Source: Naegleria gruberi
Taxonomy: Eukaryota
Strand: one strand, 5' to 3'
DNA length: 64,000 nt
Assembly: GCA_000004985.1 (NCBI GenBank)
Contig: GG738880.1
The position numbers and the translations under genes were made by a program. The first letter of the stretch is position 1; each line of letters opens with the position of its first letter. Of this stretch, positions 1,762 through 48,681 are shown one piece after another. Under the pieces are notes generated by a model, which was not told the DNA's origin, did not search any database, and saw only the letters and a program-made list of their open reading frames with translations.

Positions 1762-1763
1762 GA

Positions 1764-26600: not shown

Positions 26601-29302
26601 CATTTAATCCTGCTATTGTTAGATCTGCCATAGATCTTGGTATCTTGATTTTGAACCGTGGTGATAAGGCAATACAGGATGAGTTTTATAGAATATTGAC
26701 AGAAACTGACTCGTCCTACTTCTTTGAATCATTGAGAGATAGAATCCGTCTTGGTAAGACAGAAATCAAGGAGAGAAAGAATTACCTCAAGAAGAAAAGG
26801 GATAAAGACTATGCCTTGTTCAAACAACGTCAAAGACAAGAAGTTGCCAAGGTTCGTGCTAAGGATGAAAATGATTCCTCCCGACCAATGGAAGAGGAAG
26901 AAGAAAGAGATTTACAAGAGGACTTTGTTGAAATGGGACATATTGAATTACTTTTCGAGTTTTTGAGACTTTTATGTGAAGGACACAATGTTGAAATGCA
27001 AACACTTCTCTTAAATCAACCAGTTAATACTCTGAACGTGAATGTTGTTACAGAAACAATTGAATATATGATTGCTCTAGAGAAAAAGATTGATTTTGAT
27101 AACGTTCAAATTGCTATTCAAGGTTTCAAGACCTTGACAGAATTCATTCAAGGCCCAGCTCTTGTCATCCAACAAGCTATTGGTACTTCTCCGAGATTCT
27201 ACGCCAGACTGGTCAATGAAATCATGTCTAAAACATATGAAGATGGAAACTTGCTAAAACAACAAGAACTTGGATTGAAGAGGGAAGTTTTACTTACTCT
27301 CAATGCTCTTCTAGAAGGAATGAACAATAGTGTATTTGATTTTATGAGACATTCCCTGAACTTTGATGAATTGGAGCATTTCCTTTTGTTCTCTGCCAGA
27401 TTTTTGCATTCTCTAGAAACCAAACATGAGAACTCTGATGCAAAGGACGAATACAATGAAATCAAGCAAAGGTTGAGAAGAGATTTTGATCATCACTTCC
27501 TTCATGAAGCCACACGTGACAAGGCTAATCCAGTTATTGCAGAAGATTACATTGCAGTCTATATGCCAATGATCAAGAATTTATTGAAAGAGACTGGTAA
27601 TTTTGCCTTTTTCTTGCTTAACATTTTCAGAGATGGTGAAAGAGAAAATTTGAGAAATATTTCAAGAAGTGCCTTTATTTCTGTAGAGGAAGAAAACAAA
27701 CTTTTAAGGATTACCAACATGTTGGATAATCATTCTCAATTAGTTTCAGTATTTTCCGAATCGACAGCAAGTATTGAAGTGTTGCGTGATAACAAGATTG
27801 AGAAGATTTACTTTTCCAAACCAACCATATGCAACAATTTGATGGACAAGGCAAGAAGTAATTATGTAAACTCTCTGGATGTCATGGCACCTGAAGAGAA
27901 AGTTCGTACTCTTTACAACCATACCTTCAGTATTTTCCAAGTTGAAATGGAGCATTATGAATTGATGAAGAAAAAGTCCACCATCAAGGATAAATTAGAA
28001 GATCTAGTTGGTATAGCCAACAAACACACAGAAGAAGTGACAGAGTTTGTGCCTACAATGGCTCAACTGAGAAATAAGTACAAGAGGAAAAAGAAACTCT
28101 CCATTGGAACTAGTTCTAAAAACAGGGACCAAACAGCAAGTTGGGAATTTATTGCTCACTGGTGGGACAGAATTCGTTTATTATCTTTTATATTTTGTGT
28201 GGTTCTTAACATTTTCGTTTTAGGATTTTTGAAGAGACTCTACTCAGCAAACACAGTAGATGACATTCCAGTACCTGGAGATTTGGATTTTGATATTACG
28301 TTGGCATCAAAATATCCTACAACAAGAAATTTGGCTGGTGATATTATTATAACTATTCTGGGAGCCATTCAATTGATAACAACAGCATCATTGGCCATTA
28401 TTTACGCAAAAGTTTTTATTACTCTTGAAGTGAAGAAGAGATTCAAACTCAAAAAGAGAGAGAAATGGGAAAATATTCCAAGAAATAGAGAATTCTATTG
28501 GAAATTTATCTTTTACGCACTTCAAGATTTACAAATGTGGTTCTTTGTACTGTACTTTGTTCTCAGTGTATTAGGATTATTGATATCTCCAATAGTTTAC
28601 AGTATTCAATTGTTCGAAATTGTTTTCAGATTTAAGAGTTTGAATGACGTGTTGAGGGCTGTCATTTCCAATGGAAAAAAGCTCTTTTTTGCAGGCATGT
28701 TACTTGGAATAACCATGTTCTTGTTTGGATTGCTATTCTTCTCATGGTTCTCTAATGATTTCACACTTGAATCTAATGGAACAAAAACATGTGAAAGTGT
28801 GTTGGAATGTTTTGTGACAATGTTTGACTATGGTTTCAGAAGTGAGTCATCATGGGAAAATATGTATCCACACAATCCAACTGTTGGAAGGGCCATCCTA
28901 GACTTGGCATTTAACATGATTGTAATCGTGTACCTTTCTAACGTTGTGTTCGGTACAATTCTAGATTCTTTCCAAGAATTGAGAGCAGCAAGAGAGGAAC
29001 GTAAGAATGAAATTAGAGAAAAGTGCTTTATATGCGCTCTGGAAAAGAGTAAATTTGATACAAAAGCCAATGAAGGAATTACCTTTGAAAAGCACATTAA
29101 GGAAGAGCATTACTTGTGGAATTATGTCTACTTTTTAATTTACTTGTACGAGAAACCTGAAACTGAATATACAGGTGTTGAAAGTTATATTTTCGAAAAG
29201 TGTGAGGAGAATGATGATGTAACAAGCTTCTTCCCAATATTTAGGTCTAAAACAATTGAGGAAAGCGAACAAACAAAGGTTTCATTAGGAGGATCGGATT
29301 AA
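20633..29302 (+). CDS. Inositol 1,4,5-trisphosphate receptor / ryanodine-receptor-family Ca2+ release channel, about 2.8k aa; exon 1 is 20633..~20830 and exon 2 is ~21056..29302
   Basis: Seen: exon 1 (the 92-aa ORF in the track) matches the IP3R N-terminus (LHYGDFISLFTESSGGSIGFLSVDGININCN vs human [31 protein letters not shown]). After an AT-rich stretch the large ORF resumes the alignment (PPTYMISNFQQCVFQVCYPKSYSALKKY vs [23 protein letters not shown]). The C-terminus has a 6-TM block and the IP3R gatekeeper region (KCFICALEKSKFD...ITFEKHIKEEHYLWNYVYFLIYLYEKPETEYTGVESY vs human [53 protein letters not shown]). Two intron models are phase-consistent: 20831..21055 and 20898..21053. The exact boundaries are therefore uncertain. 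Confidence 0.8.
20831..21055 (+). other. Intron between IP3R exons 1 and 2, about 225 nt; alternative model 20898..21053
   Basis: An AT-rich, low-complexity stretch interrupts conserved IP3R N-terminal sequence. Both GT...AG models keep the frame. The first model avoids translating the low-complexity VSLSKLNNFNNLIKLIINTLII. Confidence 0.45.
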
Positions 29303-30245: not shown

Positions 30246-32162
30246 ATGTTATTTTGCAGTTCGAGATTTTCTGTAGGAAGCAACAGTTCATCTTCATCAA
30301 ATTCTTCATCATCATCGGGGAATTCTAATAACAATCAACAACAACAACATTCTGGTGGAGGAAATTCAAAAAGTGATGAAGAGTTTGATCCTGCACTGAA
30401 TGGTGGACCTATCAGAATGATTAGGAGAAATCAACAGTTGATGATGGCAAATGCTCAAATTTCCCAAAATAGTAATATCAGAAATAATGATTCGAATAGT
30501 AGTAGTAATGGAGGGGATGACAGTTGTGTTGGGAAGATATCATTGAGTAGTGATGCTAGTATTGAAAATATGATGATTAATGGTGGATATTTATTGAGGA
30601 GTTTGACAAGAGACATTTGGTATTTAATTTTCTCATTCATGTCAACACAGTGGTTCTTTTTGAATGGAAGATTAGTTTGTAAGGAATGGTATAAGTTGAT
30701 AAGGAAAAGAGGGGTTTATTCTCCAAAATTGGTTTATTACATTTCGAGAAGAGATGTAAAGAAGGAATTGAAAAGATGTGAACAATTTGTTAATTTGTGT
30801 CGAGAAGGGTATTTCAAACAAGTTGTTCAATTGACTATACATTCAGATTGTTTACTTGAGAATGGAGGTTTATTAAGGTTGTTATTTGGAGTTTCGAATA
30901 ATAATTCGAAAGAACGAATAATGAAAGGTTGCTGCACCAAACACATGAACGATGAAGAAGAAAGCAACAACCAAAACATCAATACTAATGCCCTCACCTC
31001 ACCTAGAACCTTACACAGTCCACGTGAAAACGATTCCACCACTAACGAAACTCTATTCGGCCTAAATCGAATTTGTAAAAATTGTGAAAAAATTCTTTAC
31101 AAACAAATTTCATGGGTCAACCTACTAAAAACCAACATTCCAACCTTTAATTACTTCCCCAAATTAACTTCCCTGAATCTGAGCTATGAGTTTCCAATAA
31201 CCAAGTCAATTATAACGAGTCCTTTCATTTCCTCTCTAACTGAACTTAATCTTGGAAGTGGACATGTTGTCACAGATGATGACATTAAGGAAATTGTAAA
31301 CACTCCTCGATTATCTAAGCTGAAGAGTCTAAGTTTGTATCATAATCAAATAACTGAGCATGGAGCTTTTGAAATTTCGAATAGTTTTAACATGTCTAAT
31401 TTAACAAGTTTAGAATTGGGATTGAATAGAATTGGAATGAATGGTTTCTTACATTTGGTGAATAGTTCAATTTTGAAGAATTTAACTCATCTCGATGTGA
31501 ATAGAAATGAGGTGAATTTCAATTCAATTCAGGAAATTAATGTGAAAGAATCGAATTTGAAAACATTGATATTGTTAAAGAATGAATTGGGTGTGAACGG
31601 ATCCATTTCCTTTTTAAATCATGGCAACTTTCCTCAATTAACTCATCTGAACCTTTCGAATACGAATATTGGTCTAGAGGGAATTCAGAATATTTGCAAA
31701 TGTTCATATTTAATTAATTTAACAATTCTTGAAGCTGGAAATAATGATATAGGAGATGAGGGAATTAAGGCAATCTGTACGAGTCCTTATCTTGTCAATC
31801 TCAAGCAATTAGATCTGATTAATAATAGAATTGGTCCTAAAGGTGCCTATTCGATAGCTACCTGTCTTTCGAATTTAACACATCTTGATCTCAGTAATTT
31901 CGGTAATGAAAATCTCAATCAAATTGGAAATGAAGGAGCATTCTCAATTGCTAACAGTCCAAATATGGTCAACCTTACAAAGTTATGCTTGAGAAGGAAT
32001 AACATTGGTGAGGAAGCTTCCAAAGCTGTGGAAAATAGTGAATTTTTGAAAAATCTTGTCAATCTCGATATGAGATACAATGAAATGGATATGAAACGAA
32101 ATAGAAATGTTCCACCAAGTTACAGAAGGCCATACGATGATTCCACATGTATCATTTCTTAA
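30246..32162 (+). CDS. F-box / leucine-rich-repeat protein (FBXL-like; RNI-type LRRs) with poly-Ser and poly-Gln N-terminal tracts
   Basis: Seen: ATG start, then SSSSSNSSSSSG and NNQQQQH runs. The F-box motif is LTRDIWYLIFSFMSTQWFFLNGRLVCKEWYKLI. At least 10 ribonuclease-inhibitor-type LRRs of about 28 aa follow (L..L.L..N.IG..G...I...). Confidence 0.6.
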   Translation: MLFCSSRFSVGSNSSSSSNSSSSSGNSNNNQQQQHSGGGNSKSDEEFDPALNGGPIRMIRRNQQLMMANAQISQNSNIRNNDSNSSSNGGDDSCVGKISLSSDASIENMMINGGYLLRSLTRDIWYLIFSFMSTQWFFLNGRLVCKEWYKLIRKRGVYSPKLVYYISRRDVKKELKRCEQFVNLCREGYFKQVVQLTIHSDCLLENGGLLRLLFGVSNNNSKERIMKGCCTKHMNDEEESNNQNINTNALTSPRTLHSPRENDSTTNETLFGLNRICKNCEKILYKQISWVNLLKTNIPTFNYFPKLTSLNLSYEFPITKSIITSPFISSLTELNLGSGHVVTDDDIKEIVNTPRLSKLKSLSLYHNQITEHGAFEISNSFNMSNLTSLELGLNRIGMNGFLHLVNSSILKNLTHLDVNRNEVNFNSIQEINVKESNLKTLILLKNELGVNGSISFLNHGNFPQLTHLNLSNTNIGLEGIQNICKCSYLINLTILEAGNNDIGDEGIKAICTSPYLVNLKQLDLINNRIGPKGAYSIATCLSNLTHLDLSNFGNENLNQIGNEGAFSIANSPNMVNLTKLCLRRNNIGEEASKAVENSEFLKNLVNLDMRYNEMDMKRNRNVPPSYRRPYDDSTCIIS

Positions 32163-32684
32163 CAGTTGTTTATCACTTTTTAAAGTAAATTAAATACTTT
32201 AACAATAGACTCTGTGGAAAAATAAAGCCAAGATTAAGAAATTGAATATAGCCGTTCTGTAGTACTCTCGTACCTCTCCAATTTATTCATGTTTTTTCCA
32301 TGTTTGATCATTGTATGTCTTAATGAATACTTTACCCATTCCGAATCTTCATTTCCTTAATCCAGTGATTAGCCCCATTACAGTGCATAAGAAATATAAA
32401 AACCATGGAATTTTCAATGTGATGGAAGTTCAAATTGGTAAACTTTTCGCATTCCAACAGAACAACGTTGGAGCAGGCCAAACAAGATTTGTTTAGATCC
32501 TTCACACACCTCTAGTAGTGGTAGAGTATGGAAGCACACAAACTTGATTGGTGAACATTTAAACATATAAAAAAACCGTTCAACAACAAGAACGCAAAAT
32601 CGGTTGTGTTCATCATTTTTCTAGTGATTCGACTGCAACAACAGCTACAACCTTAATAGCGTATTTTAAAGCTATTTAAAAAGA

Positions 32685-35600
32685 ATGAGTGAAGCTCACA
32701 CAGACAGTGCGGAGTCATCAACAACCACCAGTTTTTCATTTGCCACTCAAGTAAAAGAGAGGTTTGGAGAATGGATTGTTGTATTGAGGAATTCCAAAGC
32801 GATTGATAGTAACAAGTGGAGGATTTTTCACACCCTCACCGAATTGTATATATTATATTGTGCTCTATTCATTCCAACGATGAGAAATTACGGTTATGGA
32901 GAGTATGGACAGATCATGTTTAGTATCGTGGATTTTCCAATGCATTTTTTCTTACATTGGATTCAATATGAAGAAAGTTTCATAGTGAGTGGATTATTTG
33001 TGGGATTTTTAGTGTTGGCCTATGGTTTGCTGTTTGTTACCACATGGGCCTTCTCGAAAGGGAAACCTTTTAGGAAAAATCTTAGATCTCCCCTCATTAT
33101 CATCATGTACCTTTGTAGAATGTTATTTCCTCTCTTTATTCATCAAGTGATTGGATACATGGATTGTAGTTTGACTCACACTGTGCCCTACACGAGTAAG
33201 AACACTCTGAATCGATATTCAACGATAGCATGTTCAGAATCTCCGAATAGTATTCTTATTGGCCTGTCAGTGACCTTTCTCTTCTTCCTTCTGATATTTG
33301 TTATTGTATCAGAGATGATTTGCTCCGATATGCATCCAATGAGTAGACACATCTTTACACACGATAACTATTGGACCATGGTACTGCTGAGAGTGTGCTC
33401 ATTCATGAGCGTTCTCATCATGTTCTTAATCCCTATAGAATATCCCTATATATCATCAATTGTGAATATGGCTCTATCACTAATTGCTCTCATCATTCTC
33501 TTCAAGACACTTCCCTTCTACCGATCTATAAGCAGCTCTATTGTATTCGGTGTTTATTGTGGAGCACTTACAAGTTCATGTGGAACCTTAATAACCTTCT
33601 TCATCACCTCGCTCGCCTTAAACACTCCCAACACTTCATCTCCTCTCTTTAAGGAAGTTAGCGCGGGTCTTTCAGGGTTTATCGTTATTTTAGCAGTTTT
33701 GGGATTTTTGGGAGGTTTATCTTTTTTGGAATTATATCAGCGACAATTAAGAAAGACCATATTAAGGGAGGTGTTAAAGATGCGTTCTGTTTATAGACAA
33801 ATACTACCTGAGGAGAGTAATACAGTACTCTCACCTAATGCAGCTGCCACAGGTAGAGAGAATAATTTTCTTACTGTTCATCGTACTCCTGTGAAGAGAT
33901 TGTCAATTGATATACAATCGAGTTATACGACAGCTGATTCGGCTTATCAGCAATTTATGTTAAATGCTAGAGCTAGTGTGAAACAGTATAAGAAGGGATT
34001 GTTGTTATTATTGAGATCTGATTTGGTGGAAACTTCTAATACAACGAAAGATTTGAATGGAGAAACAGTTCAAATTCATGAAATTACAATGAGATTATGT
34101 AAGAATATTTTACAGAGAGGATTTGGAGATCGTCAAGTCATGGAAACTGTGGCAATGTTGTTCGCTTACAGACACATTTGCACTTCATCAAGTTTAACTG
34201 TAGCCGTCGAATTGTTACTCAAAAGTCAAAAATATTCAAACCTTCTTACTCACAATTTCTCATCGATCAAAATTACTGAAATTCAAAGCTTGGAAGAAGC
34301 TCNNNNNNNNNNNNNNNNNNNNNNNNNNNNNNNNNNNNNNNNNNNNNNNNNNCAGTTTGAGGAATATTATCAATAAGATAAGTGAGTTGACAATGGAGAG
34401 TGAACAAGTCTTTAAACAACTCCTATCGAGAAAGACAAAGAAAATACTAAGTTTGTACGCTTCATTTGTGGAAATTGTGTATTTTGATAAGGAAGGAGCT
34501 CATGCATTGTACTTGGAAGCCAATGCAATGGAAGAGCAGAAACCAGTCAAACTGCAAAAATACAAGACATCGAGAATTATGCCACAACCAATGTCAAAAG
34601 ATGACAACTTGTCAGAACAAGGTTCATTTCAAAAGAGAGCTAGTTTCTTTTCAGATGCTGAATTTGCTCACCAACAATTATTGGATGATGTATTGGAGGA
34701 AAGTGCAAGTGTTGCTGGCGCAGGAGGCGAACTCAAAAAGGATTACCTATTTAGGAATGCTTTGAAAACTTTAAAATCAAATACGGCAACTAAAATTTTC
34801 TATGCCATATTCTTATTACTGGGAGGATTTATAATTTTGGGCTCGATTGGTTTGTCCACTTATCAAGGGGCCATTATTAAGAAAAATATTGTAAATTTGA
34901 GATTAATTTGTGTTCCACAAATTTCACCAATTTCCACAATTAGAAATTTGAGAGCTTTCCAAAATTGGGTGAATATGTTTGTGTTGAATGAATATAGTTG
35001 GCCAGAACAAAGACATGGATTTTTAAATGAGTATATAACAGTAAGTTTTGCTTTAAAGAACCATTTCACATGAACTATTTATAGGCATATGTTGATGATC
35101 ATCGTCGAGTATTGGAACAGGACATTTCAGTATTGGAAGACTTGGTAAAATTAGGTCAATTGGTAGCGTTTGATGCATCTACCTATACAGCATATGGAAA
35201 ATCACAATATTCCTTCAGGGTTCCAAGTGTTAATGGAACTGATTCTTGGTCAAAATTACAATTTACTGGAATTCCAGAAAATAGAACACTGTCGATAATT
35301 GAAATGACTAATTCCTTATTGCAATATATGGATGAAATCAAAACTGTTCTTCCATTCAACGATTTGAATGCATTCTTCAATACAACCAATCAAACTGCCC
35401 GACATCAAATTCAAGAACGTTTATTGAACTCTACACTTCTCAATCCAGTTAATGATTTCAGTTTCATGTTACTATGGATTAATATGAAATCAAGTTCTTT
35501 ACAATACAAGGAATTCTGCTCCAATTTCATGAAGAAGAGCAATATTCAAGCCAATGACATGATTTACCAATTCGAATATTTTTTCATTGGAACATTATGC

Positions 35601-38004
35601 TTTTACATCATTATCGGTTTACTTTTCTCGTTATTCCTTCAATACGAGCTCACTTTCATCTCGAGACTGATTAAAGTATACGACAAGCAAATTGGCAAGG
35701 ATTTGATTGGAAGGGTTTATCAAACCCTTTCTACCAAAACTGATACAGAAGCCTCCCTAAGAATGTCCATATTTTCTCGAATGATGAGAGGAAATGTCTC
35801 TGTCATTGTGTTGGTAATTGCAATTTCACTTGTCATTCCATTGTGTGTTGGTTTAATGTTTTATGAGAGCAGGGCAACTATTAAGAGTGCAATGTTTACG
35901 TATACGAATGTTGCCCTTTCTTCTGAATGTTTGCAAAATTTACAAATGTCATCATTTTTCTTGACAGAGTTATTAACATACTATGGTCTTCCAATATTGA
36001 GCTATAATTCCATTTCCGTGAAAGGAAAAAATGTTAAATATGGACATCCATACTTTAACAAATATGATTTTGTTGGAATGTATGCAGAAATCAGAAAACA
36101 AGCAGATAGTCTAGGTGCAGAATGGTCTGAATTAATTTATGGTGATGTAACAAAGCCTGACGATGATCCTGTCATTGGTTTATATCCAGTTTTGGATGCC
36201 CTTCTGGTAGATGTCAATAATTGCAGTCTTTACTTGGCCCAACGTAGTTTGGAAGAAACTTATGAAAACTATTTGGAGTATTGTGCTGGAATTGAAAAGA
36301 TTGTGACGTTATATTTGACAAAAACGACACAAGTTAGTGAGTTGACCAGAGATCATTATATTCAGCAAATGAAAGACCCATCAAAATTGATAGATCCTTT
36401 GGAGTTATATTTGCAACACAATGACTTGTTTAGAATGTCTATTCCATTGACTAAAAAGTTGCAAGTTTACATGCAAGAGTTTGTAAGAGTTTCATCTGAA
36501 CTTTCGTTTGGATTCTTGATCGGTTTTAGCATTTTTGGATTCTTATGTATTGGAGTATTAGGTTATTTACTCTTCAGCGTAATGAATAATAATTGGGATT
36601 CCCTTCAAAAGACCAGAATGATGCTCAATTACATTGCCCTGGATTACATTGATAGAAATGAAGTTTTACGAAACCTAGTTCTCTATCATAGTTATCCTAA
36701 TGTCATTCTCGACAAGATTAGCCACAAGACAAGCAAACAAGAAGATCGTCTTAGTATTTCCAGCTTTACCGAAATGATCAACAAACACATTGATGGAACA
36801 ATTCTCATAGACGAATCTGGTTACATTGATGCAATGAACAATGCAGCTCACAGATTATTTGGCTCGAAATCTTCTGACTTTCTTGGAGCTCAGTTCTACA
36901 AGCTATTCGAAGAAAAATGTTTGGAAATGGTAAAGAAGGCATTCTGTTCTATAATGGACGCAGCAAAGAAAGCATCCGAAAGTGCAGAAAATCGAAGCAT
37001 GGTTGAAACTTTGGAAGTTGATTGTCTCAGATTGAATCAAACCAAGTTTCCTTCCAAGATTTCCTTCTTCTCCATGAATATGTCTGAAAAGGGACTAATC
37101 ATTGTCTGTACCATTAAGGATATCACTTCGGAGACTAAACAAAAATCACTCCTTGAAGAGGAGAAGAAAAACTCTGAAAATCTATTGAAGAACATTCTCC
37201 CAGAAGGAGTAGCAGCCAGATTAAAGAAGGGTGAGACGTTCATTGCAGAGAAACTCAATGACATTACATGTTTCTTCTCAGACATGGTTGGATTTACAAA
37301 AATCTCAAGTAACATGCAAGCTACTGATCTTGTGCAAATGTTGAATTTTGTGGTGAACGGTTTCGACAAGTTGACTGAAAAGTATGAGTTGGAAAAGATT
37401 AAAACCATTGGTGATGCCTATTTTGTGACTGGTGGTTTGAATGGTTGCTCTGACCATCCTGAAAATATGTTGAAATTCGCCATTGAGACATTTGACGTGA
37501 TTAAGGAATTTAATCTGAGTGGAAATTTGAAAGAAGGTGTATATTTGAATATTAGAATTGGTATAAATACTGGTGCATGTGTGGCTGGTGTAATTGGTGT
37601 AAGTATTCTAGTTTACAATATTTTAAATAATATTTAAATATTTAAAATTATGAAAGATTAAAAAATTTGCCTATGATCTATGGGGTGATACCATCAATAC
37701 AGCCTCTCGTATGGAATCAACAGGTGTTCCAGGAAGAATTCAAATTTCCAGAACAACCTATGAACGAGTTTATGATTTGGGTTTCGAATTTGAAGAACGA
37801 CAAGTTGAAGTGAAAGGAAAAGGTCAAATGCAAGCATATCTAGTTAATGCCAAACATCATACAAATCCACTTATTGAATTGGTATCTACTGCAATGATTG
37901 ATGAAGAAGATGATGATCTTTCTATTGCAAGAATTCTTCACAGCTCGACTAATACAGCACCAGAGGAAATTCAACAAGAAACCTCTCCAACTCCAACTCA
38001 ATAA
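32685..38004 (+). CDS. Receptor-type class III adenylate cyclase: N-terminal multi-pass TM module, second TM block, PAS domain, cyclase homology domain. At least 4 exons: 32685..>34302, [gap], <34353..35040, 35085..37598, 37657..38004
   Basis: Seen: about 9 hydrophobic helices between 32800 and 33750, then 4 more between 34750 and 36620. A PAS-like segment (IDGTILIDESGYIDAMNNAAHRLFGSKSSDFLGAQFYKLF) follows. The catalytic core is LLKNILPEGVAARLKKGE..ITCFFSDMVGFTKISS...KIKTIGDAYFVTGG...IRIGINTGACVAGVIG | IKKFAYDLWGDTINTASRMESTGVPGRIQIS. The bar marks a 58-nt GTAAGT...AAAG intron (37599..37656) that sits exactly where the track ends one ORF and starts the next. A second intron, 44 nt (35041..35084, GTAAGT...ATAG), links the 34357 and 35112 ORFs in frame. 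The 32685 and 34357 ORFs are separated only by the run of 50 N, so their frame relationship is unknown. The substrate-specifying positions are Lys (KIKTIGD) and Asp (AYDLWG). In established class III cyclase knowledge that pair means ATP, whereas guanylate cyclases have Glu and Cys. Confidence 0.7.
34303..34352. other. Assembly gap: run of 50 N
   Basis: Seen directly in the sequence. It falls inside the coding region of the cyclase gene, so the true exon length and frame across it are unknown. Confidence 0.95.
35041..35084 (+). other. Intron, 44 nt, GTAAGT...ATAG, in the cyclase gene
   Basis: Joins ..NEYIT to AYVDDHRRVLEQDIS.. in frame, phase 0. Confidence 0.6.
37599..37656 (+). other. Intron, 58 nt, GTAAGT...AAAG, inside the cyclase catalytic domain
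   Basis: Removing it fuses GVIG to IKKFAYDLWGDTINTASRMES. That rebuilds the universally conserved cyclase motif. Confidence 0.8.
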
Positions 38005-38106
38005 ATCATTTCATTCTTGTCTCTATCCAAATATCAATAATATTTAAATAAATTAAATTGAATATTATTATACAAATATTATAGTACACTCTATGAAGGT
38101 TTCATA

Positions 38107-40604
38107 TTAAACATATAATTGTGCTGGAGGTTTAAATGATAATGTTTTACCAACAGGGAGGATGGAATCACTAGTGCCTACTCTTAATTTGTAATTTGTG
38201 GTTTGAGAGTTAACACTTGGTCCATTCAGAATATTGATTGTAGCAATTGTTCCATCAAATGTTAAATCGAACGATCCTCCTAAATAATTCACTCCTCTCA
38301 TCTTGATAAATTTGGCACCCAAAAGAGATACATCTTTTGGAGCTAGCAACATATAGTTGTCATACATTTTCAATCCACCATAGCCATTCTGAATACTTTG
38401 AATAAATCCTCCTGCTCCTGTCAAAAAGTTGAAAGACCCCATATCAAGGAAATGTTTGTAAGGATCAGATGTTTCTGAAATGATATTAAATCTATCATAA
38501 TATTCGTCAATTAATTAGTTGTATAAGATATTGAGAAACTTACGGAGGGTGAATATTTAACAATGATCTCTTAAATGCTTCTGCAGCCAATGTGAAATTG
38601 TTCAAATCCAAATAAGTAATAGTGTGCATAGAATAAGTCATGGCTGGTCCTTCACTCCACATTATCTTGTCATAATATCTAATGTCATTATATCTTATTT
38701 GTGTTGGCATTTCGTACATGAGAGGATAGCCCAATAATACCACATCAGCTTGTTTTACATATTCACCAAAGTAAAAGTTACCTCTTGGGAAACTTGCATA
38801 TTCTGGATGAATTTGGTTGACAGAATCAAATAGAATAGTCATATTTCCAGCAATATAGTTCCACTCTGGAGTGATAGATTTTCCTAAAACAGAAGCTGCC
38901 TTGTTTCCAAATCTGAGAGCAATTTGGGCAACAGCATTTGTGAAAACTTCATTGTCAACACCGGAATACAATGGAAAACCAATACCAAACTCATCTGGGC
39001 CAACAACCTTATTTATATCATAGTGAACTCCATCAACGTTCTTTGTTACTCTGCTAGCCCAGAACTTGGCAATCTCAGAAGCCATTGGATAACCAATTGA
39101 ATTCAACCACTTGGTATCCTTAGTCAATTGCCAGAATAATTGTAAAGCAAATGAAACATCTCCAGTAACATGTTGTTCCAATTCATTAAATAGGGCTATC
39201 AGGTCAACCTCCCTACCAGAAAATCCAGTCTGGAATGGATACATTGCTCCCTTATAGCCATACTTTTTGGCATGGGATTTGGCCTGCTCCAATCGATCGA
39301 AACGATACTGAATGAGCCCTTTAGCAAGCTCTGGATGCAAGTAAGCCAGTGATGGTAAAACGAAACACTCTTGATCCCAGAAAATCAACCCATTATAAGA
39401 ATCGGTAGCAACTCCTCCTGGTGAAACACCCCAATGATAATCCTCTCTGGTACTACTCAACAAGTAGTACAAGGTACTATTAATCTTGGCTGCAAGTTCA
39501 ACATTTCCACCCAATTCAATACCACTCTTCCATAATTCTGCCCAAGCTGCAACATGCGATGAATAAAGCGACTGTTGATTGATAGTGATACCCTTGATAA
39601 AGTCAATGGATGCATCACCCAATGGATCATCTGAATCGATACTGGTTCTAATGGCAGTGAGGTAGGTAAAAGTTGTTTCAGTATTTGCAGATACTTGAAT
39701 ACTGGATGGGAATTGAGATGTAACCACAGCTACTGTAACTCTTTCAGATTCAGGTGTTTCCAAACTTGTGAGTTGACCAACATGACATTTTGTGTTGAAA
39801 TTATTGGTATGAGTACATTCCACTTGTTTGAAAGAAATATCAGCAGAAGCAGGACTATCCAAATTATTAATATTAATAGTAATTGGGAAAGAATTTGAAT
39901 TGGAAACCTCAATTTGATGAACCAACAATGATCTGTACACTCTATGAGCATAATAACGTTGCTCAATTTGTGCATTTGATAAATTAAATCCTCTCAAATA
40001 GACAGCTCTCTCAATATCCAATCCAACTCCAAATTGCTGTAAATTTGGAGAACTCAATTTCACTTTTTGAGTGGCAGGTATTCTAGCTCTAGTACTGTGA
40101 AATCCAATTAATTTCTCAATCACTACATATTTTCCCACATACACTCCACCAACATAGATATTATCAGAATCCACAACAGTTCCCAAATAGCCATTAGAAA
40201 TTGATGGCATAAAATTCTTATCTATACTCCATCAATTCAAATCAATCAATTCATATATTAATTTTTGAATTTTGATAAAGTGTACAATTCCATATAATAT
40301 TCATATAATTTTCAAATATTCATATATATTTAAATCATTAATTAATAGAAATAAAGAACAAAACAATTATATTGTGAATTACAAGACACGTGATACATAC
40401 CTGAAGGCTCATTAGGAACAGCCAATAATTGTCCCTCAGCAATACGATCATTCCAATTCTTATTATTATTATTACTAAATATCAAAGGCTTGTGCTGATG
40501 AAGATGTTGTTGTAGTTCGGCATTGGCAAATAAATATAAATTCACGGAGGATGAAAACATTATCATCATCATCATCATCACTCCATATATCATCATCATT
40601 CGCA

Positions 40605-41250: not shown

Positions 41251-43317
41251 ATGGGAAAGACAGGAAGAAATAGAAAAGTAAGTTTTTACTTTCGAATAAT
41301 TTTCTAATTTTATTAGATTTCGTTTTATTCACTACAAGCGAGTGCCAATGCCAAATACGAATGGTTCTGGAAGCAAGGAGGTAGAATTAAAAGTTGGAAG
41401 AAACGTCTCTTTGTCATTCACGATCATACTTTATTTTACTTTTCCTCCGAAGAAGATACTGAACCGAAAGGAGCCATTGTTTTAAAAGGAGCTAGTGTTG
41501 AATTGACCAATTCTGGGGATACCATAAAGAATGGTAAGAAACCACCTTCAGAAAATGGACAAAATTTGGATTATTGTTCTGTTGTGGTAAAGACACCATT
41601 CAGATCTTATTGGTTATTGAATAGTGAGGAAAAGATTGTGAGAGAGTGGGTTGACTATTTGAATTTGGTTATAAAGGAGGGTCAAATTCAAGTAATGGAT
41701 CAAAATACTTCAAATCAAACATCTAAAAAGATGGGTTGGTTGATTAAATCAGGTGGAAAATTGAAGAATTCATGGAAACAAAGATTTTTCGTTTTGAGGA
41801 ATGACATGTTGTACTATTACAAACCAAAATCTGATCCAAATGAAAAGGATAGTGGAAGAGATCCATCAGATAGTAATATTTTGACAAGTACTCAGATTGT
41901 TAACATTTCAGATTTGGATTTTAAATTGCAAAATATGATTGCACAAGGAGTAGTGACATTTTATAATGCAACTACGAGATTTAAACAAAATCAAGCTAAA
42001 AAGAAGAAAAAGACAAAGAATGCTGAAGATTTATTGATGGAAATTGAAGAATCGAGTAAGAGAGATCGTTCCAGATCTGTCAGTTCCAGAATTAGTATAT
42101 CAGATCAGAGAAGATTCTCACTCACGAATACTTTTACTGCTCTTTCAGGTGCTTCTGGTTTTATCATTCCTCAAGAGCCATTTGATAATGATTTCCAAAA
42201 ATCGTGGTTTCCATTCGAAATTCAAAATGCCAATCGTACCTATGCAATTTATGCCAAAACTCAAGATGATTGTGATGAATGGTTAATGTTTATTTTCGAA
42301 AGTATTTTGAATGTAATGGGAGAAATGGCTCACTTTATCAAAATTGGAAATTCTGGAAAGTTTGGAGATGCTGATGAGGATACAGATTCTACTCCAGAGC
42401 CATCCCCAGCAGACAGTTCAATTTTGAGTGAATCAAGAAAGAGTTTACCAAGTGTTGAATCCTTCCTGAGTAGGGAGAGTTCTGCTGTTTCAGAAATAGA
42501 GGATACTCAAAACATGACACCTCAACCAATATCTGTCATATCGGAAACTTTATTTGATGAACTTCAAAGAAGAAAAGCTGATGAAAGGCTAATTAGCTCT
42601 CTTAGAAAATCCAAGAAGAGAGATTCTGTCACTTTTAAAGGTTCTTTCAGTGAGAAATTTACTTTCATTTCTAGTGAACAAGCACTGTTGGCAGAGATGG
42701 TTCCAATCAGATTCTACCTCTACAATGGTATTTATACTGAATTGCAAACACTTGCTATTGACCAACCTTTGGAAATTAGAGGTTCTTCATTAGAGAATTG
42801 TGTAATTGAAATGCACAGCTCTAAATATTGTGAACCAATGATCAAGATTAATAGTGAAAATGTGAGATTTAAGAATGTCACTTTGAAACTCGTCTCTCAA
42901 CTCTCGAATGAACAAATTGAAATGCAAAACAGATATAATAATTCACATCAATCTGGAAAGAACAAACACTCGCCAAAGGATAACAGAACACCTTGTGTAA
43001 TATTCATTGAGAATGGAAGTTTATTAATGGAGGGATGCTCAATTATTTATGAAGACAAGACTGATCCAGAAGTTTATGTGGAAAATGAATATTCTCAAGG
43101 AGGTTCTTGTTGTGTATTTGCAACCAATAATTCTAATTGTGTGACTTTGGATTGCTCCTTAAATAATGCTCATTATGGTATTGTTACGAGTGGCAATGCT
43201 AGTGCTGTTTGTTTTGGAGGAAATATTAAATCAAAACTTGGACCATTCCTCAATTTGGATGAAACATCTAGCTCGAGAAATTACAATGTCACAATTTCTG
43301 CCTCAAAACATAAATAA
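41251..43317 (+). CDS. Protein with two PH domains and a C-terminal region resembling a beta-helix repeat; 2 exons: join(41251..41277, 41317..43317)
   Basis: Seen: the ORF in the track begins at a TTG partway through a PH domain. Extending it 5' in frame recovers a complete PH domain (KYEWFWKQGGRIKSWKKRLFVIHDHTLFYFSSEEDTEPKGAIVLKGASVEL) as far as a TAG, which is the acceptor AG. A 9-codon first exon, ATG GGA AAG ... AAA, ends at GTAAGT. The intron is 39 nt (41278..41316) and phase 0. The second PH domain is GWLIKSGGKLKNSWKQRFFVLRNDMLYYYKPKSD. The C-terminal 250 aa contain Cys/Gly/Asn-rich repeats. Confidence 0.6.
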
Positions 43318-43360: not shown

Positions 43361-45121
43361 TTATTGAATTAGGGCGAGAGTGGCATCTCTCATTTCATAG
43401 TACCAAGTCATTCTTCTTTCAGCATAGTTGAGATAGTCGAAATCAATCTTGGAAAACATGGATTGAAGCATACTCCAAACAGACCAATGCAAATTACTGA
43501 CCATAGACATGACAAGAGCTTGTCTTCTACTCTTTTCAATTAATTCTTCTGTAACATTTTCACAATCAGAGTAGTAAGTCTTGAAAAAGTTAATTTGCTC
43601 ATCATATGTTGGGTAAGCTTCAGGTAAAATACACAATCCACCAAATTCACAAAAGAAATTTCCAATATCAAAGGCAGCATAATTGTAAGCACAATATTCA
43701 AAATCAATTGTGTGGTAGGAGGACTCTTTCTCATTGAGAATAATATTGTGAGCGCCGAGGTCGTTGTGACAGAATTTAACTGGAAAATCCTTGCACAAAG
43801 ATTCAATAAGTTTCACTTCTTCCTCAATCTTGTCCATATTGAGAGGTGAATTTGGTGATAGCTTGTCTCCTCCTCTCTTGTTAAACTCGTCTCTATTGTG
43901 CTTCAAGAGAGCTAACCAACGGAAAGTTCTCTCGAAAATCACAGGTCTAGCTTGCAAGTCATGATAATGAGTCTCCTCTGCAAATGGTTTAACAGTAATA
44001 GAGTGAATACTCTTCATGAGTTTTGCAATTTCAATATAGTGCTTTCTGGCACCTCCTAGCTCATCTAAACCTCCACCCTCATAGTACTTGTAGATCATTC
44101 CATTCTCAAAGGTGGCATAAATTCTAGGGGCAAGATCGTTATAGAGTGTTGAAATTTGTTGAATATAGTGGAATTCAGCTTTACGATCAATCAAATTCTC
44201 TGAATTTTCACCAAAGCAACGAACTAGAACCTTTTGTGGATAATCCAAAGAACTCTTATCATGTTCTCTATGTACAAATTTTACAAGAAAGAGTCTGTTG
44301 GTTGTTCCACCGGTTAATTGTTTAACATGAATGTAATTCTTCAAAACATTCTTTAAAAAGTTCTTTTGTTTCGTCTTTTCATTCAATCCAGCCATATCAT
44401 TTTCATGATGTGAGATTCCATCTTCACCACTCGGAAACAAGGTAGGAGAATCCAAAGAATTAGTATCATCCAAATTGTTATTTGATGATGTAATACTTGA
44501 TGTCATTGCAGCATCGGAGAAGGATTCGGTTGAGGTGACATCATATTCATCAATTGGTGTTGCTTCACCTCCATTATTCAATTTAACATCCAAGTGATGG
44601 ATAGGAATTAAAGTTGTGTGATGAGAGAAATGTTCTTCAACAGCTGTTTCCTCACCAATAACTTTATCCTCAAGTTCCAAACTCTCCGATGATATAACTC
44701 TCTCCATTGATTCTGAAGATTCTACAATAGCCTCTTCTCCTGGAATGATTGAACTTTTCTTGATTGTAATATTCAATTGTTTTTCAATTCTTCCAATTTG
44801 TTGTTGTTGTTCATTATTTGTTTCTGCTAATTGTACAAAATGTTCAGGGAATGCCTTGATCATAAGTTGAGCAATCTTGAATTGAATTAATTCTTCCTCC
44901 GCCTCAACATCTTCTCCTTTACCAATAGGAATATAAAAATTATCAAATCTTGGTGTCTCATCCCTATCTATCAAACTTTCTTGATCGCAATTATGCTGAT
45001 GATGTTGACAATGGCTCGAAACAATTGCTTCTTCCTCCGATGATGATGATAAGGATGATACTACCGATGATGGCAATTGGCTGCTCGGATTTGCAAAATT
45101 CGTTGATTCTTGTTGATGCAT
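43361..45121 (-). CDS. Choline/ethanolamine kinase with a long acidic, low-complexity N-terminal extension
   Basis: Seen: ATG start. Brenner motif FCHNDLGAHNIIL and choline-kinase motif IDFEYCAYNYAAFDIGNFFCEF are both present. An ATP-binding-loop-like segment VKQLTGGTTNRLFLVKF is also present. The 3' end lies 43 bp from the convergent PH-domain gene. Confidence 0.8.
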   Translation of the reverse strand: MHQQESTNFANPSSQLPSSVVSSLSSSSEEEAIVSSHCQHHQHNCDQESLIDRDETPRFDNFYIPIGKGEDVEAEEELIQFKIAQLMIKAFPEHFVQLAETNNEQQQQIGRIEKQLNITIKKSSIIPGEEAIVESSESMERVISSESLELEDKVIGEETAVEEHFSHHTTLIPIHHLDVKLNNGGEATPIDEYDVTSTESFSDAAMTSSITSSNNNLDDTNSLDSPTLFPSGEDGISHHENDMAGLNEKTKQKNFLKNVLKNYIHVKQLTGGTTNRLFLVKFVHREHDKSSLDYPQKVLVRCFGENSENLIDRKAEFHYIQQISTLYNDLAPRIYATFENGMIYKYYEGGGLDELGGARKHYIEIAKLMKSIHSITVKPFAEETHYHDLQARPVIFERTFRWLALLKHNRDEFNKRGGDKLSPNSPLNMDKIEEEVKLIESLCKDFPVKFCHNDLGAHNIILNEKESSYHTIDFEYCAYNYAAFDIGNFFCEFGGLCILPEAYPTYDEQINFFKTYYSDCENVTEELIEKSRRQALVMSMVSNLHWSVWSMLQSMFSKIDFDYLNYAERRMTWYYEMRDATLALIQ

Positions 45122-48500: not shown

Positions 48501-48681
48501 TTGTTTTTGATTTGTTATTTGATGATGTATTCTTATCTGATCCTGTTGCTGATGATCCAGCACCTCCACCAAGTGCCGTGCTCATCTGATTGTGCTTTAA
48601 CACTACAGAGACGATAAATTTGCACTGCTCTGTTGATCGGAGAACTTCCTTGCAAAATTCTGTCCTCAGAGGTTGTTGCAT
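45559..48681 (-). CDS. Inositol polyphosphate 5-phosphatase with a C-terminal RhoGAP domain (OCRL/INPP5B-like)
   Basis: Seen: 5-phosphatase catalytic motifs WYGDLNYRI and PSYTDRILW lie in an endonuclease/exonuclease/phosphatase-fold core (IYAIGMQE..., GNKGGVGVRF). An ASH-like linker follows. The C-terminal RhoGAP-like segment is ..PKELWRLIDLIYHNGMKEEGLFKYSGAAREVHYIRQCLDEG.... The N-terminal 250 aa may form a PH-like module, as in OCRL. Uninterrupted 1040-aa ORF with an ATG start. Confidence 0.8.
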   Translation of the reverse strand: MQQPLRTEFCKEVLRSTEQCKFIVSVVLKHNQMSTALGGGAGSSATGSDKNTSSNNKSKTNNTSEKNVPLSKSTAVFAKKELESVLLALVGNSDKPTNLAIMILEYSVETNSFRIRDFQPIKRQDFGVKIVDETHFDLFFKRQAIVYNFQSESASSQWLIVSSLLKACKLVNDATPEPNEIIVEQPVVKTPVSNTPSNRSSILRSTNEMSLTEFLVDAETNFEIIPSPSTESEWCNHYIQRMQKDKAQKVKNDECQDISIDMFKKTNRQTSLSQNGPNQSNDIAQKATINTATDTLSQEVSRKDNWIQRQLKLKEDEFTEVTPISIVVCAWNVNNKFPSADSSLAKWLHLDEFEADIYAIGMQEIDMTAASLLKEETETGQEWQNLLIKTFADEAKQNRYKLVSARQLVGIYHAIFIKESFANDINEVRNCAEGVGIMGMMGNKGGVGVRFKLFDSTFCFITAHLAPHMGAVERRNQNFHDIVKKTDFGNPSLYRPDQHDFFFWYGDLNYRINQPNLIVREKIKQQDYKFLLKYDQLMIEKNAKNAFVGFAEGEINFDPTYKFDSGTDVYDTSEKGRVPSYTDRILWREDEKSTIVHKSYKSFKEYKMSDHKPVTACFEVGVKKIVEEKYKKCYLDIIKMLDKLENDLLPEVAITGQCIDFEAVKYEEPITQTILLKNTGQVVCEYQFVPQPHEKAPCKPYMTIEPLEGYVIPGETEEIKVTISVSTQKALKLLSGEDKIDDILILHLKNGRDHFISITGTYIQSCFGSTLDKLVKQKCPVLKSESDVELSSFDKDLKIPKELWRLIDLIYHNGMKEEGLFKYSGAAREVHYIRQCLDEGSPLLNPVSNHSIAESLMTFLESLREPVVPFKFYQMCLNASTNSATCHHLISMLPDVHFNTFHYLMSFLREVLKYKKFNSLTLEEVAIIFSRVLLRSPLQEKAHHTHDESLKYYEEQKAKAQFIGHFLKEDKVWTRDEVLRSDELEEDLFDAQDDDVSSELASDSTSFSLLQNDQLKTSESNSHSNNQQSTSQPLSADEFL

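What the first reader, a model, noticed from the sequence alone, without database searches (positions are those of the whole stretch)
32685..38004. Receptor-type nucleotidyl cyclase with about 13 TM helices and a PAS domain, with adenylate-type Lys/Asp specificity residues, spanning an assembly gap
Four ORFs in the track, one run of N and two proven introns collapse into one gene of more than 1700 aa. The layout is a multi-pass membrane module, a second TM block, PAS, then a class III cyclase homology domain. FSDMVGFT is guanylate-cyclase-like in flavour, but the base-specifying residues are Lys (KIKTIGD) and Asp (AYDLWG), which predicts cAMP synthesis. A PAS-regulated, polytopic adenylate cyclase of this architecture resembles neither the 12TM mammalian enzymes nor single-pass receptor guanylate cyclases.
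Basis: partly seen in the sequence, partly recalled or inferred. Interest (0 to 1): 0.6.

Follow-up and report, generated by a model that had tools for sequence, protein, structure and literature searches.

The report
Naegleria-type TmcB–PAS membrane adenylate cyclase gene
The four ORFs, the run of N and the two short introns form one intact 1764-residue gene for a 12-helix membrane adenylate cyclase, one ordinary member of a large, catalogued but unstudied paralog family in Naegleria-like amoebae.

Summary
Exons 32685-34302, 34353-35040, 35085-37598 and 37657-38004 join into one gene. A 98%-identical metagenome contig (L001) replaces the 50-N gap with 127 in-frame bases, giving 1764 aa.

Both introns are GT..AG and restore the frame. 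Both junctions align without indels to paralogs. There is no transcript evidence.

The layout is: 8-TM N-terminal module, cytosolic TPR_TmcB repeat, four TM helices enclosing two ~220-aa helical ectodomains, PAS_9, coiled coil, and one class III cyclase domain. I count 12 TM helices, not 13.

All six canonical catalytic residues are present (D1544, D1588, K1584, D1656, N1663, R1667). Lys/Asp predicts cAMP synthesis by a homodimer.

The architecture is not unique. At least 25 of 72 clusters at 50% identity carry the same domain order. Every named one is from Naegleria gruberi, N. fowleri, N. lovaniensis or Willaertia magna. The best named match is N. gruberi XP_002674868.1, at 55% identity.

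The PAS domain has no LOV cysteine motif and no conserved histidine. The 8-TM module has no solved structural relative.

Verdict: a new member of a known, uncharacterised kind. The mildly interesting point is the fusion of a TmcB-like module, linked to cAMP signalling in Dictyostelium, to a cyclase.

The parts
32685..34302 (+). Exon 1: start ATG, N-terminal cytosolic tail, 8-TM module and first part of the cytosolic helical repeat (residues 1-539)
   Evidence: ORF and translation. Continuous with the downstream part in L001/P0002. 23 synonymous against 13 non-synonymous codon differences to L001.
32811..33803 (+). N-terminal 8-TM module (residues 43-373). Helices 43-65, 95-125, 130-156, 186-213, 229-248, 251-275, 281-312 and 320-373. 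A beta hairpin with two Cys lies between TM3 and TM4 and is probably extracellular.
33882..34542 (+). Cytosolic helical-repeat region holding the Pfam TPR_TmcB domain (residues ~400-645). It is interrupted by the assembly gap.
34303..34352 (.). Assembly gap of 50 N. The relative L001 has 127 nt here, encoding HKSEGIISRGYSKIQLIKKNSELIIALHKDFFKELMNDPIKV plus parts of two flanking codons.
   Evidence: The only N run in the window. BLAST of L001 against the window leaves L001 3052-3178 unmatched. The fill is in frame. It contains the family-conserved LH..FWKEL motif.
34353..35040 (+). Exon 2 (residues 583-811; base 34353 completes a codon begun in the gap): end of the TPR region, low-complexity linker, TM9 and the start of ectodomain 1
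   Evidence: Translation. 6 synonymous against 1 non-synonymous codon difference to L001.
35041..35084 (+). Intron 1, 44 nt, GTAAGT...TAG
   Evidence: Sequence. In-frame TGA at 35071-35073. Removing it joins ..NEYIT|AYVDDHRR.., which aligns without indels to the closest paralogs P0013, P0018, P0021, P0024, P0036 and P0050.
35085..37598 (+). Exon 3 (residues 812-1649): rest of ectodomain 1, TM10, TM11, ectodomain 2, TM12, PAS, coiled coil and the first two thirds of the cyclase domain
   Evidence: Translation. 17 synonymous against 6 non-synonymous codon differences. AlphaFold model with pLDDT 76.5.
34783..36575 (+). Second membrane block: TM9 (34783-34857), ectodomain 1 (~224 aa, 5 N-glycosylation sequons), TM10 (35574-35645), 48-aa cytosolic loop, TM11 (35790-35861), ectodomain 2 (~214 aa), TM12 (36504-36575)
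   Evidence: Hydropathy peaks at residues 730, 978, 1051 and 1289. Codon mapping. The model shows long helices running from the TM helices into mostly helical ectodomains, pLDDT 85-90. Sequon counts. No Pfam family. No detectable duplication between the two halves: hhalign probability 14%.
36792..37127 (+). Cytosolic PAS domain (residues 1381-1492)
   Evidence: PAS_9 1e-12, 48.6 bits against a cutoff of 27. PAS fold in the model. Nearest solved PAS folds are the heme PAS domains FixL, DOS and FG214 at about 1e-7. There is no conserved His and no GxNCRFLQ motif in the window or the family.
37140..37223 (+). Coiled-coil / signalling helix preceding the cyclase domain (residues 1497-1524, ..LLEEEKKNSENLLKNILPEGVAARLK..)
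   Evidence: Weak match to the C-terminal helix of HNOBA: E 0.051 here, 0.0048 in paralog P0025. Helices 681-714 of the exon-3 model. Foldseek aligns PAS, coiled coil and catalytic domain together to soluble guanylate cyclase chains over about 325-350 columns, E 6e-11.
37245..37848 (+). Class III cyclase homology domain (residues 1532-1713), interrupted by intron 2. Metal Asp D1544 (37281-37283) and D1588 (37413-37415). Substrate Lys K1584 (37401-37403) and Asp D1656 (37675-37677). Transition-state Asn N1663 (37696-37698) and Arg R1667 (37708-37710).
   Evidence: Guanylate_cyc 183.6 bits against a cutoff of 21.9. Residue-by-residue alignment to AC9 C1 and C2. Codon mapping. Motifs shared across the 21 aligned paralog rows.
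37599..37656 (+). Intron 2, 58 nt, GTAAGT...AAG, 84% A+T
   Evidence: Sequence. Removing it gives GVIG|IKKFAYDLWGD, which matches the 21 paralog rows with no indel. It carries a 3-nt indel relative to L001, while the CDS has none.
37657..38004 (+). Exon 4 (residues 1650-1764 and TAA stop): last third of the cyclase domain and an acidic C-terminal tail
   Evidence: Translation. 2 synonymous and 0 non-synonymous codon differences.

Best explanation
This is one intact, selectively maintained gene of a Naegleria-like heterolobosean amoeba. It encodes a 1764-residue receptor-type class IIIa adenylate cyclase. It belongs to the Naegleria/Willaertia paralog family whose N-terminal half is TmcB-like.

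Shown:
- The gene structure.
- The domain order: 8-TM module, cytosolic TPR_TmcB repeat, TM-ectodomain-TM-TM-ectodomain-TM block, PAS, coiled coil, and a single cyclase domain.
- The presence of all six canonical catalytic residues in that one domain.
- Lys/Asp at the base-specifying positions.

Inferred from established class III cyclase enzymology:
- A single complete domain can only be active as a homodimer, with two symmetric active sites at the dimer interface.
- Lys/Asp makes the substrate ATP and the product cAMP.

Inferred from the anatomy and from the structural match to soluble guanylate cyclase:
- A signal sensed in the membrane or outside it, by the two helical ectodomains and/or the 8-TM module, travels down TM12.
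- It passes through the PAS dimer and the coiled coil and sets the register of the two catalytic domains.
- The PAS domain probably acts as a relay and dimerisation module, not as a heme or flavin sensor.
- With 8 + 4 helices, both termini and the TPR, PAS and cyclase parts are cytosolic. The Cys-containing hairpin and the sequon-rich loops face outward.
For: - Gene model.
- Gap closed in frame by a 98% identical contig.
- Purifying selection in all exons.
- Splice junctions collinear with paralogs.
- Pfam domains above their cutoffs.
- Catalytic and specificity residues aligned to AC9 C1 and C2; the best PDB matches are adenylate cyclases (AC9 2e-65, AC5, AC8, mycobacterial Cya), ahead of GC-A at 5.6e-42.
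- 72 clusters at 50% identity have E<1e-3, and at least 25 carry the whole domain order.
- Every named member is from Naegleria or Willaertia.
- Full-length collinear alignments: 55% to N. gruberi XP_002674868.1 over residues 737-1742, and 30.6% to N. lovaniensis XP_044555706.1 over residues 44-1751.
- 8-TM model at pLDDT about 90.
- Helical ectodomains, PAS, coiled coil and cyclase domain in the second model.
- Foldseek aligns the PAS-coiled coil-catalytic cassette to soluble guanylate cyclase, E 6e-11.
- Five N-glycosylation sequons in ectodomain 1.
Against: - There is no transcript, protein or activity data for this gene or for any family member.
- The gap sequence comes from a close relative, not from this genome.
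- Lys/Asp is a rule drawn from characterised enzymes and has not been tested in this family.
- Dimerisation was not modelled.
- The sensing element and the ligand are unknown.
- The PAS domain's nearest solved folds are heme-binding ones, so a cofactor bound in some other way is not excluded.
- The ectodomain fold could not be searched on its own, because PAS and cyclase hits fill the Foldseek list.
- The window copy has lost some residues conserved in the family's 8-TM module: the family consensus LPFxRRxENS reads LPFYRSISSS here.
Confidence: 0.8

Rival explanations
1. It is a guanylate or dual-specificity cyclase despite Lys/Asp, as the first reader's remark on FSDMVGFT hinted.
For: The Pfam family covers both activities. 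The best structural match of the PAS-coiled coil-catalytic cassette is soluble guanylate cyclase. No member of the family has been assayed.
Against: K1584 and D1656 align to the adenine-specifying Lys and Asp of AC9 C2, not to the Glu/Cys of guanylate cyclases. Sequence scores favour adenylate cyclases by more than 20 orders of magnitude in E-value over GC-A. Lys/Asp is kept across the aligned paralog rows. The match to soluble guanylate cyclase reflects domain arrangement; identity is 18-22%.
Confidence: 0.08
2. There are two genes: a TmcB-like membrane protein (32685 to about 35040) and a separate PAS-cyclase. This is how several N. fowleri loci are annotated.
For: Some public N. fowleri models are split this way, for example FDP41_006142 (824 aa, TmcB/TmcC TPR) next to FDP41_006143 (808 aa, cyclase domain), and FDP41_000411 next to FDP41_000410. 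ORF callers on L001 also report separate products.
Against: The split on L001 falls exactly at the two introns. The P0002 ORF runs from the ATG across the gap to intron 1. Other annotations of the same N. fowleri loci give single proteins of 1651-1724 aa: CAG4713405.1, CAG4711552.1 and CAG4714363.1. More than 25 full-length models exist. After intron 1 there is no start context, and homology continues across the junction without an indel. A break at intron 1 would separate TM9 from the rest of its ectodomain.
Confidence: 0.04
3. It is a bifunctional transporter-cyclase or channel-cyclase. On this reading the 8-TM module moves or binds a small molecule or ion and the cyclase reports on that, as in the ion-channel/adenylate cyclase fusions of Paramecium and Plasmodium (from my own knowledge).
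For: The 8-TM module is a compact, confidently modelled bundle that is conserved across the family. It is separated from the sensor-like 4-TM block by a cytosolic TPR domain, so it is more than an anchor. The related Dictyostelium TmcB is reported to regulate cAMP signalling (PMC8516963, PMC12750705).
Against: No similarity to any solved transporter or channel. No Pfam family. This reading adds to the main explanation and is compatible with it.
Confidence: 0.15
4. It is a decaying paralog or pseudogene within a large gene family.
For: The family is very large, so redundancy is likely. The window copy departs from the family consensus at some conserved positions of the 8-TM module.
Against: There is no stop or frameshift over 5.3 kb. 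All catalytic residues are intact. Differences to the 98% relative are 48 synonymous against 20 non-synonymous codons, with no CDS indels.
Confidence: 0.03

Closest known systems
Heterolobosean TmcB-PAS-cyclase paralogs, for example N. gruberi XP_002674868.1 (NAEGRDRAFT_69917), N. lovaniensis XP_044555706.1, N. fowleri XP_044567394.1, and Willaertia magna KAL9649878.1
   Same: Same domain order from end to end. Identity is 55% to the N. gruberi protein over residues 737-1742 and about 90% in the cyclase domain. The catalytic motifs are nearly identical. Alignments are collinear over about 1700 residues.
   Different: It is identical to no annotated protein, so it comes from an unannotated species or strain. 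The N. gruberi model of 1402 aa lacks the first ~200 residues and the 595-736 segment seen here. None of these proteins has been studied; their names are automatic ('Adenylate and Guanylate cyclase catalytic domain containing protein', 'TmcB/TmcC TPR repeats domain-containing protein').
Dictyostelium discoideum TmcB (tiny macrocysts protein B)
   Same: It shares the Pfam TPR_TmcB domain above the gathering score. TmcB is described as acting in the cAMP signalling pathway during sexual development (PMC8516963, PMC12750705).
   Different: To my knowledge TmcB has no cyclase domain, and the accepted Dictyostelium cyclase set does not include it. phmmer with the N-terminal 821 aa found no Dictyostelium protein at E<1e-3. 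Homology beyond the TPR domain could not be tested.
Mammalian membrane adenylate cyclases (AC1-9)
   Same: They are the best sequence match to the catalytic domain (AC9 2e-65). They share class IIIa motifs, Lys/Asp specificity and a total of 12 TM helices.
   Different: The mammalian enzymes are 6TM-C1-6TM-C2 pseudo-heterodimers with one active site. This protein is 8TM-TPR-4TM-PAS with a single complete catalytic domain that combines the C1 metal Asp residues with the C2 Lys/Asp/Asn/Arg. It must therefore homodimerise.
Mycobacterium tuberculosis Rv1625c/Cya
   Same: It is a single class IIIa catalytic domain behind a polytopic anchor, it is homodimeric, it has Lys/Asp, and the match is 2.7e-44.
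   Different: Rv1625c has a 6-TM anchor and no TPR, ectodomains or PAS.
Soluble guanylate cyclase alpha/beta
   Same: The PAS-coiled coil-catalytic cassette superposes as a unit: Foldseek E 6e-11 over about 325-350 columns. This suggests the same relay through a coiled coil.
   Different: There is no H-NOX domain. This protein is membrane-bound, homodimeric, and has Lys/Asp in place of Glu/Cys. Identity is only 18-22%.

Membership tests
Class III nucleotidyl cyclase (Pfam PF00211), subclass IIIa | Cyclase homology domain above the curated score | tested here: met
   183.6 bits against a cutoff of 21.9, covering profile positions 3-182 of 183.
Class III nucleotidyl cyclase (Pfam PF00211), subclass IIIa | Two metal-binding Asp, plus transition-state Asn and Arg | tested here: met
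   D1544 and D1588 align to the AC9 C1 Asp residues. N1663 and R1667 align to the AC9 C2 Asn and Arg.
Class III nucleotidyl cyclase (Pfam PF00211), subclass IIIa | Adenylate-type substrate pair Lys/Asp, as opposed to Glu/Cys in guanylate cyclases or Lys/Thr in class IIIb | tested here: met
   K1584 (EKIKTIGD) and D1656 (FAYDLWGD) align to the Lys and Asp of AC9 C2. The pair is kept across the aligned paralog rows.
Class III nucleotidyl cyclase (Pfam PF00211), subclass IIIa | Helical transducer or coiled-coil segment directly N-terminal to the catalytic domain | tested here: inconclusive
   The match to the HNOBA C-terminal helix is below the cutoff (E 0.051; 0.0048 in P0025). A helix is present in the model and is co-aligned with the coiled coil of soluble guanylate cyclase.
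Class III nucleotidyl cyclase (Pfam PF00211), subclass IIIa | Measured cAMP-forming activity as a dimer | not testable with these tools
   This needs a recombinant enzyme assay.
Heterolobosean TmcB-PAS-cyclase paralog family | Collinear N-terminal module, TPR, 4-TM block, PAS and cyclase domain in one polypeptide | tested here: met
   Segment-wise phmmer maps all five segments in the same order in at least 25 clusters. BLAST is collinear over residues 44-1751 with P0025.
Heterolobosean TmcB-PAS-cyclase paralog family | Taxonomic restriction to Naegleria and Willaertia | tested here: inconclusive
   Every named hit is from Naegleria or Willaertia. The window's own organism could not be named: exact look-ups of two neighbouring proteins found nothing.
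TmcB/TmcC family (Dictyostelium) | TPR_TmcB domain above the gathering score | tested here: met
   48.4 bits against 27 on the gap-filled protein P0002; 31.2 bits on the window part alone.
TmcB/TmcC family (Dictyostelium) | Homology of the polytopic membrane part to Dictyostelium TmcB | not testable with these tools
   No Dictyostelium sequence was retrievable. phmmer returned only heterolobosean and unnamed proteins.
Mammalian-type 12-TM adenylate cyclase | Two cyclase domains (C1, C2), each following a 6-TM block | tested here: not met
   There is a single cyclase domain at the C-terminus. The TM layout is 8 + 4.
Single-pass receptor guanylate cyclase | One TM helix, a kinase-homology domain, and Glu/Cys specificity | tested here: not met
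   12 TM helices, no kinase-like Pfam hit, and Lys/Asp.
LOV / heme PAS sensors | GxNCRFLQ flavin-adduct Cys, or a FixL/DOS-type proximal His | tested here: not met
   The window lacks the motif. No column of the family PAS alignment has His in more than about 10% of sequences. Similarity to FixL and DOS is fold-level only.

The most novel reading that the evidence does not exclude
The TmcB-type 8-TM + TPR module may be a dedicated regulatory or sensing partner of adenylate cyclases. In Heterolobosea it is covalently fused to the cyclase. In Dictyostelium it survives as the free protein TmcB. That would explain why loss of TmcB disturbs cAMP signalling, and it predicts a direct TmcB-cyclase complex there. 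If so, this family would give the first handle on the function of a membrane fold that has no solved relative.
Probability: 0.2. Interest if true: 0.6.

Novelty: new member of a known kind. Interest (0 to 1): 0.33.

Why it matters
By itself it matters little. Naegleria is already known to carry roughly 80-100 cyclase genes (PMC9928731), and dozens of proteins with this exact architecture are already in public databases.

Two things give it some value:
- It is a clean, gap-closed, intron-resolved model of a family whose public models are often split or truncated.
- The family fuses a TmcB-like membrane module, genetically tied to cAMP signalling in Dictyostelium, to an adenylate cyclase. That gene-fusion clue to TmcB function is not mentioned in the literature I could search.

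Tried and rejected
- **Word-index homolog searches.** Searches with the N-terminal 821 aa and with a 22-sequence alignment of it returned only the query. Hydrophobic words swamp the candidate list. Only the exhaustive phmmer search found the family.
- **AFDB50 fold search.** Not available.
- **Spliced post-gap protein.** The model therefore lacks TM9 and the first 60 residues of ectodomain 1.
- **Ectodomain fold.** Could not be searched separately. The Foldseek output for that model shows only PAS and cyclase hits.
- **Internal duplication of the two TM-ectodomain-TM halves.** Not supported: hhalign probability 14%.
- **Synteny check with the N. gruberi locus.** Failed because P0013 is not on record.
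- **Naming the organism.** Exact look-up of two neighbouring ORFs found nothing.
- **P0005.** It has the same TM layout plus PAS and cyclase, but its N-terminal half has no detectable similarity to the family profile. I did not count it as a member.
- **Literature.** The Fritz-Laylin 2010 genome paper is not held.
- **PAS against PDB by sequence.** One marginal hit only.

Full report
**Observation**

The region reads as the first-stage reader described it.
- An ATG at 32685 is the first start codon after an in-frame stop. It opens a frame that runs to the only N run in the window, 34303-34352.
- The frame is open again from 34353/34354 to 35040.
- A 44-nt GTAAGT..TAG segment (35041-35084) containing an in-frame TGA follows.
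- A frame shifted by the intron length runs from 35085 to 37598.
- A 58-nt, 84% A+T GTAAGT..AAG segment (37599-37656) follows.
- The last exon runs from 37657 to TAA at 38002-38004.
- Both exon ends fall on codon boundaries.

**The gap**

A protein search with the post-gap product found two ENA metagenome ORFs at 98-99% identity, P0001 and P0002, on one 7828-nt contig.
- That contig, L001, aligns to window 31257-34302 at 97.6% and to 34353-39002 at 98.9%. It carries 127 nt where the window has 50 N.
- The 127 nt keep the reading frame. In L001 a single ORF (P0002, 821 aa) runs from the same ATG through the gap to intron 1.
- With this fill the protein is 1764 aa.
- The filled segment contains ..ALHKDFFKEL... 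This matches the most conserved motif of that region in the family, LH..FWKEL.

**Is it coding, and is it one gene?**

- Differences between the window and L001 fall 13/8/48 on codon positions 1/2/3. The CDS has no indels, while the intergenic DNA and intron 2 do.
- By codon there are 48 synonymous and 20 non-synonymous differences. The N-terminal exon shows the same bias, 23 against 13.
- Junction 2 gives GVIG|IKKFAYDLWGD, which matches 21 paralog rows without any indel.
- Junction 1 gives ..NEYIT|AYVDDHRR.., which aligns without a gap to the six closest paralogs.
- Full-length single-chain gene models with the same order of parts exist in three Naegleria species and in Willaertia.
No transcript data were available, so 'proven introns' is too strong a wording.

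**Anatomy**

*Pfam.*
- Guanylate_cyc: 3.6e-54.
- PAS_9: 1e-12.
- TPR_TmcB: 48.4 bits against a cutoff of 27 on the gap-filled N-half; only a partial hit on the window alone, because the gap cuts the domain.
- Nothing is found for the first 539 residues.

*AlphaFold model of the N-half, built with 21 homologs.*
- pLDDT is about 90 for residues 30-370.
- It shows eight TM helices, with a two-Cys beta hairpin between helices 3 and 4.
- A helical repeat follows at residues 400-643.

*Hydropathy and the exon-3 model, pLDDT 76.5.*
- Four more TM helices lie at about residues 730, 978, 1051 and 1289.
- They enclose two loops of about 220 aa, built mostly of long helices continuous with the TM helices.
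- Loop 1 has five N-glycosylation sequons.
- PAS, a coiled coil and the cyclase domain follow.

*Topology.*
- The helix count is 12 (8 + 4), not about 13.
- This gives a self-consistent topology. Both termini and the TPR, PAS and cyclase parts are inside. The Cys hairpin and both large loops are outside.

**Catalytic domain**

- Against PDB sequences the best matches are adenylate cyclases: AC9 at 2e-65, AC5, AC8, and mycobacterial Cya at 2.7e-44. GC-A follows at 5.6e-42.
- The printed alignments place D1544 (FFSDMVGFT) and D1588 (TIGDAY) on the two metal Asp residues of AC9 C1.
- They place K1584 (EKIKTIG), D1656 (FAYDLWG), N1663 and R1667 (TINTASRMES) on the substrate and transition-state residues of AC9 C2.
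- One domain thus holds everything that the mammalian enzymes divide between C1 and C2. From established class III enzymology, this means a homodimer with two active sites, and Lys/Asp means ATP.
- The second refutation test, Glu/Cys at these positions, also fails to refute.
- The motifs are shared across the family. Lys/Asp is kept in the aligned rows, with one paralog (P0027) reading FTFDIWGD.

**PAS domain**

- There is no close solved homolog by sequence.
- By fold, the whole PAS-coiled coil-catalytic cassette aligns to soluble guanylate cyclase chains over about 325-350 columns, E 6e-11. The PAS domain alone is nearest to the heme PAS domains of FixL, DOS and FG214.
- The window's PAS domain has no His in the region where FixL carries its heme-ligating His.
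- No column of the family alignment has His above about 10%. There is no GxNCRFLQ motif.
- I therefore read the PAS domain as a relay and dimerisation module, as in soluble guanylate cyclase. This is an inference, not a demonstration.

**What family is it?**

- An exhaustive phmmer search of 1.84 billion cluster representatives with the N-terminal 821 aa gave 72 clusters at E<1e-3 and 19 at E<1e-30.
- Mapping five segments of the protein onto these hits shows the complete order in at least 25 clusters of 1400-1830 aa. The shorter hits are mostly fragments or split models.
- Every hit that carries a name is from N. gruberi, N. fowleri, N. lovaniensis or Willaertia magna. The names are automatic, such as 'Adenylate and Guanylate cyclase catalytic domain containing protein' or 'TmcB/TmcC TPR repeats domain-containing protein'.
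- The best named relative is N. gruberi XP_002674868.1: 55% identity over residues 737-1742 and 44% over residues 215-594.
- The window's protein is not identical to any annotated protein. Two neighbouring ORFs are not on record either.
- The source is therefore a Naegleria-like heterolobosean other than the annotated strains. GC content of 31-39%, short introns and the eukaryotic neighbours fit that.

**The N-terminal module**

- It has no Pfam family.
- A profile search of PDB sequences found nothing.
- Its only link to the literature is the TPR_TmcB domain. Dictyostelium tmcB is described as a regulator of the cAMP pathway in sexual development, and homologs are noted in Carpediemonas (PMC8516963, PMC12750705).
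- No paper in the searchable library connects TmcB with the Naegleria cyclases.
- The fusion suggests that this module works with a cyclase. That is the most novel reading the evidence allows, and I give it about 20%.

**Comparison and verdict**

- It works like a homodimeric class IIIa membrane adenylate cyclase. Rv1625c is the simplest analogue.
- Its intracellular relay resembles that of soluble guanylate cyclase.
- Its membrane part is unlike either the 6+6 TM mammalian enzymes or the single-pass receptor guanylate cyclases.
- It is a member of the heterolobosean TmcB-PAS-cyclase family, which is catalogued but uncharacterised. Naegleria's large cyclase repertoire is already documented (PMC9928731).
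- The finding is correct and carefully drawn, but it is ordinary for its organism: a new member of a known kind.

Noticed in passing
window 21059-29302 (+): A single 2747-aa ORF encodes an IP3-receptor/ryanodine-receptor-like channel (RIH, RIH_assoc, Ins145_P3_rec, MIR and Ion_trans domains). It lies about 3.4 kb upstream of the cyclase gene.
   Followed up: partly
window 45559-48681 (-): OCRL-like inositol polyphosphate 5-phosphatase with ASH and RhoGAP domains. A choline/ethanolamine kinase lies at 43361-45121 (-), and a PH-domain protein at 41503-43317 (+).
   Followed up: partly
window 38107-40210 (-): A glycoside hydrolase family 65-like gene converges on the cyclase 3' end. The two minus-strand ORFs, 38540-40210 and 38107-38442, are probably joined by a short intron. 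L001 has a 3-nt indel at 38513 inside that interval.
   Followed up: no
window 30246-32162 (+): The upstream neighbour is a 638-aa leucine-rich-repeat protein with a Ser/Asn/Gln low-complexity N-terminus.
   Followed up: no
L002 560-5497 (ENA ERZ16299754, contig NODE_4526): P0005 (1645 aa, intronless) has the same TM layout: about 8 N-terminal helices, then helices at 673, 939, 1014 and 1220, then PAS_9 and a cyclase domain. Its N-terminal half shows no detectable sequence similarity to the Naegleria family. A tubulin-tyrosine-ligase gene starts 30 nt downstream, so it comes from a very compact, unidentified eukaryotic genome.
   Followed up: partly
public N. fowleri models (clusters of P0039, P0058, P0074): Several family members are split into adjacent models in one N. 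fowleri annotation: FDP41_006142/006143, FDP41_007427/007428 and FDP41_000410/000411. Another annotation gives single 1651-1724-aa proteins for the same loci (CAG4713405.1, CAG4714363.1, CAG4711552.1). Published cyclase and TmcB counts for Naegleria may therefore be distorted.
   Followed up: partly
L001 (ENA ERZ929261, run ERR1078381, PRJEB11402): An environmental metagenome holds a 7.8-kb contig 98-99% identical to window 31257-39002. A very close relative of the source organism is therefore present in that sample.
   Followed up: partly
window 541-3152 and 11842-15759 (-): An RlaP-family nucleotidyltransferase ORF (541-1761), an XLF-like ORF (1764-3152, -), and a 1305-aa protein with teneurin-type EGF repeats and Kelch repeats.
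   Followed up: no
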